From: Gallionella sp.
GTDB lineage: Bacteria > Pseudomonadota > Gammaproteobacteria > Burkholderiales > Gallionellaceae
Length of the DNA stretch: 64,000 bases
Direction of reading: 5' to 3'
Assembly: GCA_028688275.1 (NCBI GenBank)
Contig: JAQTYN010000003.1
Location: 1,358-65,357, forward strand
The notes beneath the pieces are model-generated. The model saw only the letters and a program-made list of their open reading frames with translations. It had not been told where the DNA came from and did no database searches. The number at the start of each line of letters is the position of its first letter. Position 1 is the stretch's first letter. Made by a program: the position numbers and the translations under genes. Positions 2,695-39,709 of this stretch are shown piece by piece.

Positions 2695-3990
2695 ATGAAT
2701 CTAAATCAAAAAATAGCCATAATCGGCGGTGGCTACGCGGGCATGGCGGCGGCGGTGACACTGGCGCAGCGCGGCGTTGCCGTCACCGTGTTTGAAAGTG
2801 CCAAGCAACTCGGCGGACGGGCGCGGGGTGTGAGCTATCAAGACACGCAATTGGATAACGGGCAGCATTTGTTGCTGGGCTGTTATCGGGAAACTTTGCG
2901 CCTGATTGAGTTAGTCGGCGGCAATATCGAACAAGACTTTGTGCGCTTCCCGCTGCAATTGGAGTTGCATGAACAGTTTTCCTTAAAAGCCCCCAACTTG
3001 CCCGCACCGCTGCATTTGTTGGTGGCGTTTGTGCAGGCGCAAGGGCTGACGTGGGCGGATCGTTTGAAGGCGGCGGGGTTTATGGTGCGCTTGCAACTGG
3101 CGAAGTTTCGTTTGGATCAGTTGCAACGCGGCATGACGGATTGCACCGTGGAGGAACTGATGACCCGTTATGGGCAAACAGGCGATCTGACCTTAAAGCT
3201 GTGGGAACCGCTGTGCATCGCCGCTTTGAATACGCCCATTGCACAGGCTTCGGCGCAAGTGTTGCTGAATGTGCTGCGTGATTCGCTGAATCAAACCCGT
3301 GCCGACAGCGATATGTTGTTGCCGCGTATGAATTTCACCGCCTTGTTTCCGCAACGCGCCGCGCAATATGTGGAGGCGCAGGGCGGAAAAGTGCATCTTG
3401 TGTGTGGTGTTGAAACGCTACGGCAAGTCGAGCATGGTTTTGAGCTGACTACGCCGCAAGGCACGGAATTGTTCGATAAAGTCATCTGCGCCACCTCGCC
3501 CAGCGTCGCCGCGCGCTTGCTACGTGACACGTTGGACGTGAGTTTAATTGCCGCTTTGCCGCAACAACCGATTTACACCGTGTATTTGCAATACCCCGCC
3601 GAATGCCGTTTGCCCACGCCGATGTTGGGCTTGCATCAGTGCACTAGCCAATGGCTATTCGACAAAGGACAAATCGCGGGGCAGCACGGCTTAATCGCCT
3701 CGGTGATTAGCGCGGAAGGCTTGCACCAAGAGTTAAGCCAAGACCAGCTCGCACTCGCGGTTGCAGCTGAACTCCAACAAAAATTTGCCTTCCCCGAAGC
3801 CCCCGTTTGGTACAAAGTCATCGCCGAAAAGCGCGCCACCTTCTCCTGCAACGCTCACCTCGTCCGCCCCGACCAATGCACCAGCGTGTCAAATTTATGG
3901 CTGGCGGGCGATTACACCGCAGGCGATTATCCTGCCACCTTGGAAGGCGCGGTGATGAGTGGGGTCAAGTGCGCGAGGGAAATTTCGTAG
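2695..3990 (+). CDS. hpnE: Hydroxysqualene dehydroxylase (FAD-dependent oxidoreductase)
   Basis: IAIIGGGYAG FAD motif, LGGRAR, DNGQHLLLGCY, EKRATF and AGDYT..YPATLEGAV. Confidence 0.85.
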   Translation: MNLNQKIAIIGGGYAGMAAAVTLAQRGVAVTVFESAKQLGGRARGVSYQDTQLDNGQHLLLGCYRETLRLIELVGGNIEQDFVRFPLQLELHEQFSLKAPNLPAPLHLLVAFVQAQGLTWADRLKAAGFMVRLQLAKFRLDQLQRGMTDCTVEELMTRYGQTGDLTLKLWEPLCIAALNTPIAQASAQVLLNVLRDSLNQTRADSDMLLPRMNFTALFPQRAAQYVEAQGGKVHLVCGVETLRQVEHGFELTTPQGTELFDKVICATSPSVAARLLRDTLDVSLIAALPQQPIYTVYLQYPAECRLPTPMLGLHQCTSQWLFDKGQIAGQHGLIASVISAEGLHQELSQDQLALAVAAELQQKFAFPEAPVWYKVIAEKRATFSCNAHLVRPDQCTSVSNLWLAGDYTAGDYPATLEGAVMSGVKCAREIS

Positions 3991-32388: not shown

Positions 32389-33795
32389 TTATCTATGCAA
32401 ACGGTGTGCTTGCAGCACCTCCGCCACGGTGTAGAACGAGCCAAAGGCGGTGATTCTATCATTTTCGCCCGCGACATTACAGGCATGAACGAAAGCAGCC
32501 GTCGGATCGTCAAATTTTTGAATGTCGCCGTGCACGTGGCAAGCCTGTAGGGCGGAACTGACTTCATCAGCGGTTGCGCCGCGCGGGGCGTGTATGCTGG
32601 CGACTAACCACACATCCACTTGGTCTTGCAGCGCGGTAATCACGCCCGCCATATCTTTGTCTTTCAGCATGGCAAATACGGCGTATCGGCGGGGAACAGG
32701 CGGTAAGCTCGTCCAGTTTTGCGCCAAACTGCGAGCCGCATGGGGATTATGGGCAACATCTAAAATGACAGTGGGCTTGCCTGGCAAAGTTTGAAAACGC
32801 CCTGTGAGCGAAACTTCTACCAAGCCACACCGCACGGCTGCCATATTGACGGGCAATTTTTCTTTCAGTACGTCCAACGCTGCCAGCACGGCACTGGCAT
32901 TACCCAGTTGGAATGCACCGCGTAAAGCAGGGTAGGGCAGTGACGCACGCGCCCCGATTGGACTGTAAAAATCCCATTGTTGCGGTGATGCAGCGGGGGT
33001 TGCAATAGATAACGGGTCATGGGCGCGCGCCGTGAGGGATACTTCATTAAAACCAAAGTCCGTGCCAATTTGCCACAAAGTCGCGCCGATGTCCTGTGCG
33101 TGCTTCACTAAAGTATCAGGCACATTGGGTTCCGCGCAAATCGCCACCTTACCGCTGCGGAAAATGCCTGCTTTTTCAAAGCCGATCAATTCCCGCGTGT
33201 CGCCTAAATAGTCGATGTGGTCTATGTCGATGCTGGTGACGATGGCGCAATCGCTATCAAACACATTCACGGCATCCAACCTACCACCTAGCCCCACTTC
33301 CAAAATTGCCACATCGACTTGTTGTTCGATAAACAACTGCATTGCCGCCAAAGTGCCGAACTCAAAATAGGTCAACGCGATGTCGGTGTTGCGTAGGTCG
33401 GGATTCATCCCGACATCTCTCTCATTTTTCTCCCTCTGGGAGAGGGCTGGGGTGAGGGCAACTCCTTGACGTGCCAGCTCAATCGCCGTAAAGGACGCGC
33501 ATAAATCCGCATCACTCACGGGTTGTTTGTCGATGCGCACCCGTTCGTTGTACTCCAGCAAATGCGGCGAGGTATAGCAACCGACGCGGTACCCCGCCGC
33601 AAACAAAATGCTTTCCAGCATGGCACAAACTGACCCTTTACCATTCGTCCCGCCCACCACAATCACAGGAAAATCAGGCGACAAATTCATGCGCTGCTTC
33701 ACTTCCGTCACACGTGATAAACCTAGGGAAATGGTTTTAGGGTTTAAAGATTCAAGATGGGTGAGCCAAGCGGGGAGATTTTTATGTACGTTCAT
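32389..33795 (-). CDS. folC: Bifunctional folylpolyglutamate synthase/dihydrofolate synthase, with two in-frame insertions
   Basis: VGGTNGKGS, YTSPHL, TYFEFGTLA, EVGLGGRLDAVN and DVAHNPHAA. Confidence 0.97.
   Translation of the reverse strand: MNVHKNLPAWLTHLESLNPKTISLGLSRVTEVKQRMNLSPDFPVIVVGGTNGKGSVCAMLESILFAAGYRVGCYTSPHLLEYNERVRIDKQPVSDADLCASFTAIELARQGVALTPALSQREKNERDVGMNPDLRNTDIALTYFEFGTLAAMQLFIEQQVDVAILEVGLGGRLDAVNVFDSDCAIVTSIDIDHIDYLGDTRELIGFEKAGIFRSGKVAICAEPNVPDTLVKHAQDIGATLWQIGTDFGFNEVSLTARAHDPLSIATPAASPQQWDFYSPIGARASLPYPALRGAFQLGNASAVLAALDVLKEKLPVNMAAVRCGLVEVSLTGRFQTLPGKPTVILDVAHNPHAARSLAQNWTSLPPVPRRYAVFAMLKDKDMAGVITALQDQVDVWLVASIHAPRGATADEVSSALQACHVHGDIQKFDDPTAAFVHACNVAGENDRITAFGSFYTVAEVLQAHRLHR
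33379..33459. repeat. GTAG-REP plus CCCTCTCCC-family repeat inserted in frame within folC
   Basis: GTAGGTCGGGATTCATCCCGAC (33393-33414) abuts TCTCCCTCTGGGAGAGGGCTGGGGTGAGGG (33429-33458). Confidence 0.85.
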
Positions 33796-33800
33796 TATGG

Positions 33801-34550
33801 TTAGTAATCGCTGAAAGCGGTGAGGCAATGTTGCCAAGCGTCGGGTTGCTGTGATTTTAGTGCCGAAAAGGGAGCCTCATTTTGTCCCGTGCCTTTAAAG
33901 CACCAGCCTAATAAACCGTGGTCGTCGGCTTCTAACAAATGGTCAACCAAGTCGTCCTGTGTTGCGGAGGGAGTTTCCAAGTAGTTGCTAATACATTGCT
34001 TGAGACGTTTATAGGTTCTCTTATAACTTTCGGCCAATCCTTCACGGCGATCTAGTTGCAGTATTTCAACGGTTTTTAATCCCTTGTTTGAATAATCATT
34101 GAGTTGCAAAATATATCGAGCAGACATTCTGCCCGTTTCAATTTCAAAATCCAGATAATCCCAAGGATCTTCTACGCAAGGATCAATTAGCAAGGGCTGT
34201 TGGTCATCGTGCAGTGGAAACTTACTACCTTTAAGGCGACCGCATTCTGTGCAACACAATAGTAAGTTTTGCCACTGAAACATCCATTCAGGAAAGGGCG
34301 ATTTAGGGCGGAAGTGTTCAATATCGCAACCATGAGAATCCACGCAATACATACAGCGTCCGCGCTTGCCCATCATGGATTGCAAGGCATTCAGCACGCT
34401 GGTCATCGATTGGGTTTGACGTGCGGATTTCCACTTGCTGGTTATATCAGGGTTTTCTCCCCGCGCCCGTGCGGTGTCGATTTCCTGTTGTTTATCATTC
34501 AGATAAGTGTGCAGGTCAGGGGCAAGGGCTGCTCGCCGAACGCGTTGCAT
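33801..34550 (-). CDS. HNH endonuclease, PtuB/TIGR02646-like
   Basis: RCMYC..DIEHFRPKS..WQNLLLCCTECGRLKG..PLLIDP. Confidence 0.88.
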   Translation of the reverse strand: MQRVRRAALAPDLHTYLNDKQQEIDTARARGENPDITSKWKSARQTQSMTSVLNALQSMMGKRGRCMYCVDSHGCDIEHFRPKSPFPEWMFQWQNLLLCCTECGRLKGSKFPLHDDQQPLLIDPCVEDPWDYLDFEIETGRMSARYILQLNDYSNKGLKTVEILQLDRREGLAESYKRTYKRLKQCISNYLETPSATQDDLVDHLLEADDHGLLGWCFKGTGQNEAPFSALKSQQPDAWQHCLTAFSDY

Positions 34551-34553
34551 GGT

Positions 34554-36191
34554 TTACAGTTCTTTATCCGCGTGGATAAAGTTGTCCAATTCAGCCAAAC
34601 GTGTTGATTCGGCTGCTGTCAGTGTCGCCCCTGCACGTTGTTTGCTACGAAGTTTGGTAAATTCGGCTAAATTTTCAACCGCCAATTCGGAGCGCGTATT
34701 TTGCAAACCAAACGCAGGCGAACGCAGTACGGCATCACTTTTGGAGGCGCGGACTTCTTGTAGTTGCGCATCGGATAATGCATAAGGTAATTCATCGCTA
34801 CCAGGTTCAGGCAATACAAAAATTTTATCCGCCGCTTGGCAAATCAACGGGCTATGCGTCGTCACCAAAAATTGAATATGCGGGAAATGGCGTTTTAACC
34901 AGCCGCTGATTTCACGTTGCCATTCGGGATGCAAATGCGCATCGACTTCATCAATCAACACCACGCCGCTGCGGGTAATGTACAAGCGACCTTCGGCATT
35001 GCGCGCTGCCAACCCTTCCACGCCAAATTTGCGAATCAATTGACGCAAAATATCCGATAACAACGCCAATGCAGCGCGATAGCCATCGCTCATATCGCGC
35101 CAAGCCAGTCGCAAACCATTGCGATCTTCTAGCCACAAACCATCTGAATTGACATCTTTTAGCGTGATTTGATTCGGCATAAACTCATCACGCAACAATT
35201 CCAACACGATTTCTAACTGTGCTTTTGCTGATTCGTTGCCTTCTAGGGTTTTATACTTTAGGTCACGCAACCAACGATCTGCTTCGTAAAGCGAGGCAGC
35301 TTCTTGAAACAAGGTGGCAAAACGCTCTACCACTTCACCCGTCATCAGTTGCGTCGCTTCTTGGGATGCGCCGAATACTCGACGGAAAGGGCCGTAACCG
35401 CAGGAGAACCAACCTTGAGAATTTTCTGACAAAAGACCATCACCTGCCATCATCGCGCTCAACATCGTAGAGATTAGCATTCGTCCCTCTAAGCTGCTTT
35501 GTATCAGCGTGGCAAATTCCTCTTCTAGAGCATTTCGTTCCGTTTCAGATAACTTGGCAATGTTCTCTTTTACTTGATTAAGCGTAGCTTTTAGTTCATG
35601 AAATTCAATCTCAACATCGTCAAAATTAGCAACCATTGATTTGGCTCGCAAGTATGAGCGGCTCTTTTCGTAAAAAGTCGTGACATCTATTGATGTCCAA
35701 TCTGGAATTGTCAATGCTTGAAGCAGATAAACCCCAAAATTCTTAGCAAAATTTTCTAAGGAGCTATTATCTTTTTTGTCTAGAGAATCCACGATGGCAT
35801 CCATAGATTCGGTTGCAGAGTTGCTAAGGCTAACATCTCGCACAGGAAGAAAATAATCCATAACTGGCGCAACTTCTTGCGGATATTCTTTATTTTGCTC
35901 AAAGAAATCGTCTTCAAGATTGCGCACAAAAGAAAGCGAAGCGTGAGCCTCTTTTTCACCATGACGAACCCATGCGTCAATCTTGGGTTCGAGTGTTAAG
36001 GCATATTGTCCTCTCACCAACCCCGCCGCAATAGCCTTTAACAGTGTGCTTTTCCCCGCGCCATTACCCCCCGTAAAAACAATCCACCCTGCGTACTTGG
36101 CTTGCCCATGCTCATCCACTCCGTGCGCAAGGTCAAAATCCAGCTCTTTGAATCCACGAATGTTTTTCAGTTTAATACGGCTGATGTGCAT
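34554..36191 (-). CDS. ABC/SMC-type ATPase, PtuA-like (AAA_21)
   Basis: LKNIRGF, Walker A GGNGAGKS, signature MSDGY, Walker B VLIDEVDAHLHP and H-loop TTHSP. Confidence 0.9.
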   Translation of the reverse strand: MHISRIKLKNIRGFKELDFDLAHGVDEHGQAKYAGWIVFTGGNGAGKSTLLKAIAAGLVRGQYALTLEPKIDAWVRHGEKEAHASLSFVRNLEDDFFEQNKEYPQEVAPVMDYFLPVRDVSLSNSATESMDAIVDSLDKKDNSSLENFAKNFGVYLLQALTIPDWTSIDVTTFYEKSRSYLRAKSMVANFDDVEIEFHELKATLNQVKENIAKLSETERNALEEEFATLIQSSLEGRMLISTMLSAMMAGDGLLSENSQGWFSCGYGPFRRVFGASQEATQLMTGEVVERFATLFQEAASLYEADRWLRDLKYKTLEGNESAKAQLEIVLELLRDEFMPNQITLKDVNSDGLWLEDRNGLRLAWRDMSDGYRAALALLSDILRQLIRKFGVEGLAARNAEGRLYITRSGVVLIDEVDAHLHPEWQREISGWLKRHFPHIQFLVTTHSPLICQAADKIFVLPEPGSDELPYALSDAQLQEVRASKSDAVLRSPAFGLQNTRSELAVENLAEFTKLRSKQRAGATLTAAESTRLAELDNFIHADKEL

Positions 36192-36212
36192 GATGTTCTC
36201 GCTCGAAGTAGC

Positions 36213-37094
36213 TTACGCCGCCTCAATCTCCGCTACAGCATCTTGTTTGTTGAGTAATGCCATCAATTTTGCCAGTTGATCCCGCATTTCGCGTCTGTCC
36301 ACAATCATATCGACTGCGCCGTGTTCCAACAGGAATTCAGCGCGTTGGAAGCCATCTGGCAGGGTTTCGCGAACGGTTTGTTGGATCACGCGTGCGCCTG
36401 CGAAGCCGATTAACGCGCCTGGTTCGGCGATGACCACGTCACCCATAAAGGCGAAGCTGGCGGATACGCCGCCCATGGTCGGGTCGGTTAATACTGAGAT
36501 AAAGGGTAATTTGGCTTCACTCAACTGCGTGAGTGCAGCACACGTTTTGGTCATTTGCATCAAGGACAGCAAGCCTTCTTGCATCCGTGCGCCACCGCTG
36601 GCAGCGAAACAGACGAACGGGCATTTTTGATCTAGGGCGACTTGCACCCCGCGCACAAAGCGTTCGCCGACCACCGAGCCCATGGAGCCGCCCATAAAAG
36701 TGAATTCAAATGCCGCTGCAACCACAGGTTGGGCGTGGATGCTGCCTTGCATGACAATCAGCGCGTCATCTTCGTCCGTCGCTTCTTTGGAGGCTAATAA
36801 ACGATCTGAGTATTTGCGGCTGTCTTTGAATTTCAACGGGTCAATCGGCAAGACTTCCGCGCCGATTTCAAAGCGACCTTCGCCGTCCAGTAGCCAATCC
36901 AGTCGGGTGCGGGCAGTGATGCGGTGGTGATGCAGGCACTTTGGGCAGACGCTGTTGTTTTTTTCCAAGTCGGCGTAATACAACACGGCTTGGCAAGACG
37001 GACATTTATGCCACAAGCCTTCAGGCACGTTTTTCTTAGCATCGCCTTCGCGGCGTTTCATTTTGGGGGGTAATAATTTTTGAAACCAGCTCAT
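36213..37094 (-). CDS. accD: Acetyl-CoA carboxylase carboxyltransferase beta subunit
   Basis: [15 protein letters not shown] zinc finger, [10 protein letters not shown] and SGGARMQEG. Confidence 0.99.
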
Positions 37095-37303: not shown

Positions 37304-38098
37304 TTAAGCCTGTTCCACTGCTTGTTTTAAACCACTGACCAACGCGCTAACATTAGCGATGACATTGGCTTCGGTTGAATCTTCAATTGCTTGCACGATG
37401 CGGCTGCCGACCACGACACCGTCGCATAATTTCGCGACTGCCAACGCGGTTTCCGCATCACGAATACCAAAACCTACGCCAATCGGCAGTTTAATATGCT
37501 GACGCAATTGTGGGATTTTATCGGCAATCGCGCTTAAATCCAAATTCCCCGCGCCCGTCACGCCTTTCAGCGACACGTAATAAACATACCCACGCGCCAA
37601 TTTCGCGACTTGTTGGATGCGCGATTCGGTGGTGGTGGGGGCAAGCAAGAAAATCGGCGCGATGTTGTAGCGTTGCAGATGGGCAAACGCGTCATGGCTT
37701 TCTTCGGGGGGAAAATCTACGGTCAGTACGCCGTCCACGCCCACTTCATCGCAGCGTTGCGCGAATACATCCCAGCCCATGGCTTCAATCGGATTGCCAT
37801 AGCCCATCAGCACCACGGGGGTGGTGGTGTTTTGTTGACGGAATTCTGCCACCATGTTCAACACGCTGCGTAGCGATACACCTTTTTTCAAGGCACGCTC
37901 GGACGCGCGTTGGATGGTCGGGCCATCCGCCATGGGATCAGAAAACGGCACGCCCAATTCCAAAATATCTGCACCCGAAGCCACCAGCGCGTGCATCAAT
38001 GGCACGGTCATTTCAGGCGACGGATCGCCCGCCGTAATAAAAGGAATCAATGCCTTACGCTGTCCCAGCGCGGCAAAAGTATTATCTATGCGACTCAT
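37304..38098 (-). CDS. trpA: Tryptophan synthase alpha chain
   Basis: [27 protein letters not shown] and VGFGI. Confidence 0.99.
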
Positions 38099-39291
38099 AA
38101 TGTAATCCCCGACAAACGTGCCACAGTGTTAATGTCCTTGTCGCCGCGACCCGATAAATTCACCAGCAACACTTGATCTTTGCGCATCGTGGGCGCGATT
38201 TTGGCGGCGTGCGCCAAGGCGTGGCTGGATTCCAACGCGGGAATAATCCCTTCAAAACGACACAAATTGTGAAAAGCCTGCATCGCTTCGTCGTCGTTAA
38301 TGGCGACATATTCCGCACGTCCCGTGTCTTTTAACCAGCAATGCTCAGGTCCGACCCCAGGGTAATCCAAGCCAGCCGAAATAGAATGCGTCTCGATAAT
38401 TTGCCCGTTTTCGTCTTGCATCAAATACACGCGGTTGCCGTGCAACACGCCAACTTTGCTGTTGGAAGTCAACGGCGCAGCATGTGAGCCGCTGTCGATG
38501 CCATGCCCGCCCGCTTCCACGCCGATCAGGCGCACGCCTTCAATTTCGATGTAAGGATGGAAAATCCCAATCGCATTCGAGCCGCCGCCCACGCAAGCAA
38601 TCACCGCATCGGGCTGACGACCGATCATTTCAGGCATTTGCACCTTGGCTTCATTGCCAATCACGCATTGAAAATCGCGCACCATCATCGGATACGGATG
38701 CGGGCCCGCTGCCGTGCCGAAAATGTAAAACGTGGACTCGACGTTGGTCACCCAATCCCGAATCGCCTCGTTGCACGCGTCTTTCAGCGTTTTCGAGCCG
38801 CTTTCCACTGGCACAACCGTCGCGCCCAACAACTTCATGCGGAACACGTTCGGGGCTTGGCGTTGAATATCCTCCGCGCCCATATACACCACGCATTCCA
38901 TGCCATAGCGCGCCGCCACCGTCGCCGTCGCCACGCCGTGCATCCCCGCGCCTGTTTCCGCAATCACGCGCTTTTTGCCCATGCGCTTCGCCAACAAGGC
39001 TTGCCCCATGGCGTTATTGATTTTGTGCGCGCCCGTGTGATTCAAATCCTCGCGCTTCAAATAAATCTGCGCGCCGCCTAAGCGATCCGACCAGTTTTTC
39101 GCATGGTAAATCGGACTAGGACGACCGACGTAATGCTTCAATTCATCCGCAAATTCGGCTTTAAATTCCGCATCCTCGCGGAAATGTAAATACGCATCGC
39201 GCAACTCTTCCACCGCAGGAATCAGCGTCTCCGCCATATAAATCCCACCAAATTTCCCAAAATGACCCGTGTTATCAGGGTAGTTGTACAT
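38095..39291 (-). CDS. trpB: Tryptophan synthase beta chain
   Basis: [24 protein letters not shown] and [15 protein letters not shown]. Confidence 0.99.
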
Positions 39292-39524
39292 GTTTAACCT
39301 CATTGATAAACGCAGCAAACTCGCCGCGTCTTTAAGTAAGAACCGCCCATCCATTGCAAAATGTAGCGCGTCGCAAATTACTGCCGCCACATCACGGCGC
39401 GCATTGTAGCAAATCGCCCCTAAGTTGACGCAGCTTGTCGTCGGTGTTGTTGCGAGATGCGTTGTGCTCGAACGAATTTAACAAGCAAAACACTTCGCGC
39501 TGCCAACATATTTCACATACCAAT

Positions 39525-39552
39525 AAATCGCATAATTTATATTATGTAAAAT
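39525..39552 (+). other. dif: dif-like XerC/XerD chromosome dimer resolution site
   Basis: AAATCGCATAA-TTTATA-TTATGTAAAAT versus E. coli GGTGCGCATAA-TGTATA-TTATGTTAAAT. It is intergenic and AT-rich. Confidence 0.85.
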
Positions 39553-39709
39553 ATCCAATAAAACCTTAAAACATTGACCTCCATCGCGGATCCGCTTTTT
39601 GTTGATCATTTTATTGATTCGGCCAAGTGAAGTTTGAAGCCTATGTAAAAGTTTCACTATATTTACATAGAGTTATCTGCGAAAAAATTCAAACATAACC
39701 TAGCCGTAT

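What the first reader, a model, noticed from the sequence alone, without database searches (positions are those of the whole stretch)
33801..36191. Septu-like ATPase+HNH pair embedded without a promoter gap inside the accD-folC operon
Gaps are 21 nt (accD to ATPase), 3 nt (ATPase to HNH) and 5 nt (HNH to folC). The pair must therefore be co-transcribed with two essential genes that are normally adjacent. PtuAB/Septu is an anti-phage ATPase-HNH system, sometimes retron-controlled (established), but no reverse transcriptase is present here. Such placement would force constitutive expression and hinder loss, unlike a typical defence island.
Basis: partly seen in the sequence, partly recalled or inferred. 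Interest (0 to 1): 0.7.

Follow-up and report, generated by a model that had tools for sequence, protein, structure and literature searches.

The report
Septu defence pair wedged between accD and folC
A known two-gene anti-phage system (Septu: PtuA ATPase plus PtuB HNH nuclease) sits without room for its own promoter between two essential genes of a Gallionella genome, in a slot that holds different cargo in almost every related species. It is a real but only moderately unusual variant of a known system.

Summary
On the minus strand the order is accD, 21 nt, a 545-aa PtuA, 3 nt, a 249-aa PtuB, 5 nt, folC. PADLOC names both proteins (PtuA E=3e-136, PtuB E=2e-38). No reverse transcriptase or retron RNA is nearby, so this is a stand-alone Septu.

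accD and folC are adjacent in other families of the order. In this genus, 22 of about 39 lineages carry same-strand cargo in the gap, of at least 14 kinds and mostly not defence genes.

Five lineages carry Septu there; the four with a complete accD form one accD clade. The closest species (AccD 99% identical) has other cargo and no PtuAB trace. The cassette is also far more alike between lineages than its flanks. The placement therefore does not prevent turnover.

These PtuAs carry an 80-115-aa helical insert that related 431-aa PtuAs lack. It has no detectable homologue, is hypervariable, and is flanked by 98-99% identical DNA, so it is a likely specificity module.

Close relatives sit in mreB|mreC (Bryobacterales) and inside restriction-modification operons. 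Septu embedding in defence operons is already published.

Verdict: new variant of a known kind, moderate interest.

The parts
36213..37094 (-). accD (acetyl-CoA carboxylase carboxyltransferase beta subunit), the upstream flank
   Evidence: Pfam Carboxyl_trans and Zn_ribbon_ACC. 80-99% identical AccD is found across the genus.
36192..36212 (-). 21-nt accD-PtuA spacer (gctacttcgagcgagaacatc) with a weak GAGcGAG Shine-Dalgarno-like stretch
   Evidence: Sequence. The spacer is identical in L032 and is 17-22 nt in the other four Septu-bearing lineages.
34554..36191 (-). ptuA, an ABC-type ATPase of 545 aa (long variant)
   Evidence: PADLOC PDLC00269 E=3.1e-136. Pfam AAA_21, AAA_15 and AAA_23. PDB PtuA chains 9e8z, 9kjx and 8ee4 match.
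36048..36071 (-). Walker A motif G41-GNGAGK-S48 of PtuA
   Evidence: G41, N43, G44, G46, K47 and S48 are invariant columns in alignment A1.
35414..36019 (-). Hypervariable, AT-rich middle module of PtuA (about residues 58-259). It contains the lineage-specific helical insert (about residues 95-258, window 35418-35909).
   Evidence: blastn does not align it to L023. Amino-acid identity is 18-36% against 74-98% in the C-terminal half. GC is 0.41 and GC3 0.35. 431-aa relatives lack the insert. The AF2 model makes it all-helical at low confidence. It has no homologue among 1.84 billion representatives. DNA that is 98-99% identical to L032 flanks it.
34929..34964 (-). Walker B / D-loop VVLIDEVDAHLH (D414, E415) of PtuA
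   Evidence: Invariant columns in A1. It aligns with the Walker B stretch of retron Ec83 PtuA.
34551..34553 (-). 3-nt PtuA-PtuB spacer (translational coupling)
   Evidence: The same 3-nt spacing occurs in nearly all close relatives across phyla.
33801..34550 (-). ptuB, an HNH nuclease of 249 aa
   Evidence: PADLOC PDLC00317 E=1.8e-38. NCBIfam TIGR02646 is above its cut-off and NF041761 PtuB scores E=6.6e-21. PDB PtuB chains 9l7p and 9kjx match.
34242..34355 (-). HNH / zinc-finger core of PtuB: C66-x2-C69, H79 (in DIEHFRP), N95, and C100-x2-C103
   Evidence: Read from the translation. It aligns to CxxC...CHIEHFRPR...W.NL of solved PtuB.
33796..33800 (-). 5-nt PtuB-folC spacer (ccata). It equals the first 5 nt of the longer PtuB-to-116-aa-gene spacer in L023.
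   Evidence: The 116-aa BV97_02767 gene of L023, L032 and L035 is missing here.
32389..33795 (-). folC (folylpolyglutamate/dihydrofolate synthase), the downstream flank. Its first 6 codons (MNVHKN) are not homologous to relatives.
   Evidence: Pfam Mur_ligase_M/C. Homology to L023 resumes at window 33777.

Best explanation
This is a stand-alone type I Septu anti-phage system: a PtuA ABC ATPase plus a PtuB HNH nuclease. It lies as a promoterless two-gene cassette in the accD-folC spacer of a Gallionella chromosome.

Shown here: the identity of both proteins, intact catalytic motifs, purifying selection, the absence of an adjacent RT, and spacers of 21, 3 and 5 nt. The same placement occurs in five lineages, and the four with a complete accD form one accD clade. 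The slot takes many kinds of cargo across the genus. The closest species lacks the pair, and the cassette has been exchanged between lineages.

Inferred: the pair is transcribed by read-through from accD (or from trpBA-accD), and it is translationally coupled to folC, so it is made constitutively at housekeeping level.

Inferred from published Septu work: PtuA oligomers hold PtuB inactive while ATP is bound. A phage protein and/or a fall in ATP frees the nuclease, which nicks DNA and/or leads to tRNA-Tyr cleavage and aborts the infection.

Inferred: the lineage-specific, hypervariable helical insert in PtuA sets which phages are sensed, and it diversifies by recombination in the near-identical DNA on either side.
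For: Identity: PADLOC PtuA E=3e-136 and PtuB E=2e-38, TIGR02646 above its cut-off, and PDB PtuA/PtuB matches.

Motifs: Walker A, Walker B, the MSDGY signature, the TTHSP H-loop and the HNH core are all kept.

Selection: dN/dS is 0.04-0.11 for the PtuA C-terminal half and 0.13-0.25 for PtuB.

No retron.

Anatomy. There is no excess of promoter-like or terminator-like sites.

Same site in L023, L032, L033/34 and L035/36. The four lineages with a complete accD form one accD clade with 100/99 support.

Slot variability.

Mosaic exchange: between the window and L032, dS is 0.08-0.35 for PtuAB against 1.14-1.26 for accD and folC. Tracts 98-99% identical flank a 37-69% identical insert.

Foreign composition: GC3 is 0.35-0.46 against 0.57-0.60 in the flanks.

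Mechanism of stand-alone Septu: PMC12819146, and the abstract of PMC13096335.
Against: Promoters inside coding sequence cannot be excluded by a consensus scan. A promoter-like site does lie inside accD at 36836-36809.

No phage or activity data exist for this clade. The PADLOC Type IV restriction models (mREase_IV) also hit both proteins, at E=1e-52 and 1e-20.

The sensor role of the insert rests only on its pattern of variation. The AF2 model of it has low confidence (pLDDT 40-70), and dN/dS there is unreliable at 18-36% identity.
Confidence: 0.75

Rival explanations
1. The pair is transcriptionally autonomous. A promoter inside the 3' part of accD drives PtuAB, and a promoter inside the 3' part of ptuB drives folC. 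The tight packing then says little about regulation.
For: One promoter-like site lies inside accD at 36836-36809 on the minus strand. In relatives without cargo the accD-folC spacer is 1-122 nt and often holds REP-like hairpins, so folC may not depend strictly on accD read-through. Other members of the PtuA clade have upstream gaps of 200-730 nt, presumably with their own promoters.
Against: The scan found no minus-strand promoter-like site between 36809 and 33796, and no terminator excess. The 3-nt and 5-nt spacers point to coupled translation of one mRNA. All five lineages keep spacers of 17-22 nt upstream and 4-18 nt downstream.
Confidence: 0.15
2. The pair does not work as an abortive-infection Septu. 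It acts as a restriction-like nuclease on incoming (for example modified) DNA, or as an accessory 'guard' of another system, as its relatives inside RM operons may do.
For: PADLOC mREase_IV models hit PtuA (E=1.4e-52) and PtuB (E=1.3e-20). Close relatives are wedged in Type III mod|res, Type I hsdS|hsdR, SNF2-helicase|MTase and polA|GmrSD arrangements. PrrC is a precedent for a guard embedded in an RM operon (PMC12707154).
Against: No RM or other defence gene flanks the pair here. The neighbours are trpBA, accD, folC, a SPOR-domain gene, cvpA and purF. The PtuA/PtuB models score far better than the mREase_IV models.
Confidence: 0.07
3. The pair is a decaying or domesticated passenger with no defence role, kept only because removing it would disturb folC expression.
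For: It lies in a slot that mostly carries non-defence cargo. folC now starts 5 nt after ptuB with a new 6-codon N-terminus.
Against: Both ORFs are intact in five lineages, with dN/dS of 0.04-0.25 and all catalytic residues kept. The closest species replaced the cassette cleanly. Localised hypervariability and allele exchange are typical of genes in an arms race.
Confidence: 0.03

Closest known systems
Stand-alone Septu type I (PtuA/PtuB; Doron et al. 2018, cited from my own knowledge; structures 8EE4, 8EE7 and 8EEA; mechanism as summarised in PMC12819146)
   Same: It has the same two proteins in the same order: an ABC ATPase followed by a TIGR02646-type HNH nuclease. There is no RT. The Walker A/B and HNH motifs are kept.
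   Different: PtuA is 545 aa, with an orphan helical insert of 80-115 aa that the 431-aa clade members lack. The location is between two essential housekeeping genes rather than in a defence island. There is no room for its own promoter.
[quoted passage not shown]
   Same: It is wedged co-directionally, with tiny gaps, between the genes of another operon. Relatives of this very clade show the published pattern (mod|PtuAB|res, hsdS|PtuAB|hsdR, helicase|PtuAB|MTase).
   Different: The host operon here is housekeeping (accD|folC). A second such case is mreB|mreC in Bryobacterales. No partner defence system is present, so no 'guard' logic is evident.
Retron type I-A (Ec78/Eco7) PtuAB effectors
   Same: PtuA and PtuB are homologous and give the best PDB sequence hits.
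   Different: There is no RT, ncRNA or msDNA locus next to the pair. The NCBIfam retron-PtuA and retron-PtuB equivalog models score far below their cut-offs (111 against 500 bits and 75 against 150 bits).
Core-gene-flanked variable hotspots of bacterial pangenomes (for example the E. coli and Pseudomonas defence hotspots; recalled from my own knowledge, not read here)
   Same: A fixed chromosomal position between conserved core genes carries different accessory cargo in different lineages, with no integrase in sight.
   Different: The slot is inside a probable operon and holds only 1-3 genes, always on the operon's strand. Its cargo is mostly non-defence: an EamA half-transporter, a cytochrome c'-like protein, an acyltransferase, an FGE-sulfatase-like protein, a PIN7 protein, a methyltransferase and unknowns.

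Membership tests
Septu type I (PtuAB) | PtuA: an ABC/AAA_15/AAA_21-type ATPase with Walker A and Walker B motifs | tested here: met
   PADLOC PDLC00269 E=3.1e-136, Pfam AAA_21 and AAA_15. G41-S48 and D414-E415 are invariant.
Septu type I (PtuAB) | PtuB: an HNH (TIGR02646-type) nuclease encoded directly downstream on the same strand | tested here: met
   PDLC00317 E=1.8e-38. TIGR02646 scores 56.6 bits, above its 52.15 cut-off. The spacer is 3 nt. The CxxC...H79...N95...CxxC core is present.
Septu type I (PtuAB) | Protects against phage, depending on the ATPase and HNH residues | not testable with these tools
Purifying selection (dN/dS 0.04-0.25) is only indirect support.
Retron type I-A (RT + ncRNA + PtuAB) | An adjacent reverse transcriptase and retron ncRNA | tested here: not met
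   RVT_1 hits are only on contigs C39 and C15, not on C88. Rfam finds nothing in 31-40 kb. The flanking ORFs are accD and folC.
Defence island | Other defence genes among the immediate neighbours | tested here: not met
   The neighbours are trpB, trpA, accD, folC, a SPOR-domain gene, cvpA and purF. Other cargo in the same slot in relatives shows no convincing PADLOC hit.
Defence system embedded in a defence operon (Hma / RM 'embedding') | The flanking genes belong to one defence system | tested here: not met
   The flanks here are housekeeping genes. The feature is met in relatives L027, L029, L053, L058 and L096.
Integron-type gene cassette | An attC-like imperfect palindrome at the cassette border and an integrase nearby | tested here: not met
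   The spacers of 21 and 5 nt hold no palindrome. Cargo borders across species share no motif.

The most novel reading that the evidence does not exclude
The accD|folC spacer of this Gallionella clade is an integrase-less cargo slot inside an operon. The Septu pair in it is an immune locus with a natural series of alleles. On this reading the orphan helical insert of PtuA is the phage-recognition module, and it is swapped like a cassette by recombination in the 98-99% identical DNA on either side. Hard-wiring to an essential operon (also seen at mreB|mreC in Bryobacterales) would be selected because it ties the level of the defence complex to host transcription, so that phage-induced host shut-off itself helps to trigger the system.
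Probability: 0.12. Interest if true: 0.7.

Novelty: new variant of a known kind. Interest (0 to 1): 0.42.

Why it matters
Septu itself is well described, so the system adds little. Three things are worth keeping.

(1) A defence cassette can live promoterless inside an essential housekeeping operon. This happened in at least two phyla with the same PtuA clade (accD|folC and mreB|mreC). Methods that look for defence islands or defence-gene enrichment would miss such loci.

(2) The five accD|folC alleles form a natural swap series. They share a nearly identical ATPase core and differ in an orphan helical insert. That gives a direct way to test which part of PtuA decides phage specificity, a point still open for stand-alone Septu.

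(3) The accD-folC spacer of Gallionella is a clean example of a small, strand-constrained cargo slot with no visible mobility genes. It is useful for studying how operons take up foreign genes.

Tried and rejected

Flanking direct or inverted repeats as insertion scars: only chance-level short repeats were found. No motif is shared at cargo borders across species.

Integron-cassette reading: rejected, with no attC-like palindrome and no integrase.

Defence-hotspot reading of the slot: rejected. Most cargo has no PADLOC hit. Pfam names an EamA transporter, an acyltransferase, an FGE-sulfatase-like protein, a PIN7 protein and a methyltransferase, plus a cytochrome c'-like hit below Pfam's cut-off (22 vs 26.5 bits).

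Carriage on a plasmid or phage: there are no close hits. The best plasmid match is 43% identity over half the protein, and phage matches cover only the ATPase core.

Origin of the PtuA insert: a full HMMER search of 1.84 billion representatives gave one spurious coiled-coil repeat hit.

Structure: the AF2 model of PtuA had a mean pLDDT of 66, with the insert at 40-70. That is too weak for a fold search, so none was run.

'Placement hinders loss': rejected after G139 was found.

Remnants of PtuAB in the G139 spacer: none by blastn with word size 7.
Full report
**1. Observation**

The minus strand of the window carries trpB (38095-39390), trpA (37304-38098), accD (36213-37094), a 545-aa ORF (34554-36191) and a 249-aa ORF (33801-34550). 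These are followed by folC (ATG at 33795, ending at 32389), a SPOR-domain gene, cvpA and purF.

**2. Identity**

- The 545-aa protein matches PADLOC PtuA model PDLC00269 at E=3.1e-136 and Pfam AAA_21, AAA_15 and AAA_23.
- The 249-aa protein matches PtuB model PDLC00317 at E=1.8e-38. It also passes the curated cut-off of NCBIfam TIGR02646, 'retron system putative HNH endonuclease'.
- The best matches among solved structures are PtuA and PtuB chains of retron Ec83/Ec78 and of stand-alone Septu 8EE4.
- The catalytic motifs are present. In PtuA these are Walker A (G41-S48), Walker B (D414-E415), the MSDGY signature and the TTHSP H-loop. In PtuB they are the C66xxC69...H79...N95...C100xxC103 core.
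- RVT_1 domains occur only on two other contigs of the genome, and Rfam finds nothing between 31 and 40 kb.

This is therefore a stand-alone Septu, not a type I-A retron.

**3. Expression signals**

The consensus scan gives as many promoter-like and terminator-like sites as shuffled sequence does. No minus-strand promoter-like site lies between 36809 and 33796. Spacers of 21, 3 and 5 nt cannot hold a promoter or an intrinsic terminator. Co-transcription with accD and folC, and translational coupling of ptuA to ptuB to folC, are the simplest readings.

**4. The site in relatives**

The closest named relative is a Gallionella MAG, L023. In 20 of 22 other families of the order, accD and folC are adjacent and co-directional. 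The gaps are roughly 0-150 nt by my arithmetic on the coordinates, and two were checked in sequence at 34 and 73 nt.

Within the genus the spacer ranges from 1 to 2017 nt. Of about 39 lineages read (plus the five Septu loci), 22 carry one to three extra genes, always on the operon's strand. Cargo identified:

- an EamA half-transporter
- a cytochrome c'-like protein
- an acyltransferase-3
- an FGE-sulfatase-like protein
- a 134-aa protein with a weak KbpA-like hit
- a PIN7 protein, with gaps of only 13 and 9 nt
- a methyltransferase
- the 116-aa membrane protein BV97_02767
- several ORFs with no family

None gives a convincing PADLOC hit. REP-like hairpins are common in the empty spacers and just upstream of folC. 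Cargo borders share no motif, and the Septu pair has no flanking repeats. The slot is a general accessory-gene slot, not a defence hotspot.

**5. Septu at this site**

Only 5 of 317 species of the family have this PtuA clade. Two of them have it at accD|folC: the window's genome and G177, which is L023. A search of 5.8 billion proteins finds thousands of relatives of about 431 aa and only five long ones of 508-545 aa. Every long one sits in accD|ptuA|ptuB|(BV97_02767 or nothing)|folC. The four lineages with a complete accD form one accD clade with 100/99 support. The fifth, L035/36, has only a partial accD and was not in the tree.

**6. Turnover**

G139 has the AccD closest to the window's (99.3% identity, dS 0.27, against 0.47 for L023). 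It is also closer in trpA, folC and cvpA. G139 has no PtuAB. Its 590-nt spacer holds a MITE-like palindrome and a 98-aa ORF, with no trace of ptuAB.

Between the window and L032, synonymous divergence is 1.14 in accD and 1.26 in folC. It is only 0.08 in the PtuA N-terminus, 0.26 in the PtuA C-terminal half and 0.35 in ptuB. The 21-nt upstream spacer is identical in the two. L033 and L035 have closely similar partial accD (dS 0.33) but PtuB only 50% identical.

The cassette has therefore been lost, replaced or re-imported by recombination. I cannot tell a loss in G139 from a recent import into the window's lineage. Either way, the idea that the placement hinders loss is not supported.

**7. The PtuA insert**

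Compared with the 431-aa relatives, the five long PtuAs have 80-115 extra residues between the N-terminal lobe and the GWFSCGYGPFRR block.

- In the window this stretch is AT-rich: GC 0.41 and GC3 0.35, against 0.53 and 0.60 in accD.
- The AF2 model makes it all-helical, at low confidence.
- It has no homologue among 1.84 billion representative proteins.
- Among the five alleles it is 18-36% identical, while the C-terminal 286 residues are 74-98% identical with dN/dS of 0.04-0.11.
- In 100-nt windows against L032, identity runs 98% (end of accD, spacer and start of ptuA), then 87%, then 37-69% across the middle module, then 99% for the next 300 nt.

A hypervariable module between near-identical flanks is the pattern expected of a specificity determinant that is exchanged by recombination. 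That reading is inference.

**8. The same clade elsewhere**

- In two Bryobacterales MAGs and one metagenome contig, the pair sits between mreB and mreC, followed by mreD, PBP2 and rodA. The gaps are 27-32, 3 and 18 nt.
- Other relatives lie in Type III mod|PtuAB|res (gaps 9 and 4 nt), Type I hsdS|PtuAB|hsdR and SNF2-helicase|PtuAB|methylase.
- Others lie in polA|PtuAB|GmrSD, between lolA and rarA (after a DUF2130 gene), or in a broken Type ISP gene.
- Some have their own upstream gap of 200-730 nt in ordinary islands.
- Among the metagenome loci with a PtuB call and a co-directional ORF (≥100 aa) found on both sides (17 loci), five have co-directional neighbours within 40 nt on both sides.

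[quoted passage not shown] PrrC in the EcoprrI operon is the classic guard precedent (PMC12707154). What is less usual here is that the host operon is a housekeeping one. Earlier notes of this scan report similar cases, such as Septu before nadD and HEC-type pairs in other housekeeping operons. I treat those as leads only.

**9. Mechanism**

By homology with stand-alone Septu (PMC12819146; abstract of PMC13096335), PtuA oligomers bind ATP and hold PtuB. Phage proteins and/or a fall in ATP release nuclease activity against DNA, and tRNA-Tyr cleavage has been reported. None of this was tested for this clade.

**10. Verdict**

This is a real, intact Septu pair in an unusual but not unprecedented setting. 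It has a new long PtuA variant and sits at a locus with high turnover. I rate it a new variant of a known kind, of moderate interest.

Noticed in passing
window 33379-33459 (folC residues about 116-140): folC carries an in-frame extra segment (ALTPALSQREKNERDVGMNPDLRNTD). tblastn matches to relatives split at residues 115/137 in most species. L023 and G139 have different versions of the segment at the same place. It looks like a REP-derived in-frame insertion, as another first-stage note says.
   Followed up: partly
window 39527-39553: A dif-like site, AATCGCATAA-TTTATA-TTATGTAAAAT, lies in the spacer upstream of trpB, about 2.4 kb from accD. The locus would then lie next to the replication terminus.
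   Followed up: partly
L133 (G139) about 3312-3465: A MITE-like imperfect palindrome of about 150 nt, with nested arms, lies directly after the accD stop. It is followed by a 98-aa ORF with a GKIYIGS motif (possibly GIY-YIG-like). Pfam gives no hit.
   Followed up: partly
L024 4943-12691; also L025 and L059: Bryobacterales carry the same PtuAB clade between mreB and mreC of the mreBCD-mrdA-rodA operon, with gaps of 27-32, 3 and 18 nt.
   Followed up: partly
L026 4959-10435: In a Chthoniobacter MAG, PtuAB lies between an N-terminal fragment (Mrr_cat_2 plus part of ResIII, 351 aa) and a protein that begins with the end of a Type_ISP_C domain. The cassette seems to have replaced the middle of a Type ISP restriction gene.
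   Followed up: no
L040 6437-8122: In a Sterolibacteriaceae genome, a DDE transposase gene on the opposite strand separates ptuA from the 240-aa ORF (no Pfam hit on record) that I take for ptuB, downstream of rng and maf.
   Followed up: no
L134 (G104), reverse strand 1021-1617: A 198-aa PIN7-domain gene is wedged between accD and folC with gaps of only 13 and 9 nt. This is a second case of very tight embedding in the same slot.
   Followed up: partly
G000:C92:48814-49281: A second, distant PtuA-like ATPase segment (31% identity) lies inside a 1001-aa open frame elsewhere in the same genome.
   Followed up: no
L053 4001-5289: In a Type III mod|PtuAB|res locus, the PtuA frame as I read it stops after 164 codons. 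This is either a frameshifted copy or a wrong start in my script.
   Followed up: no
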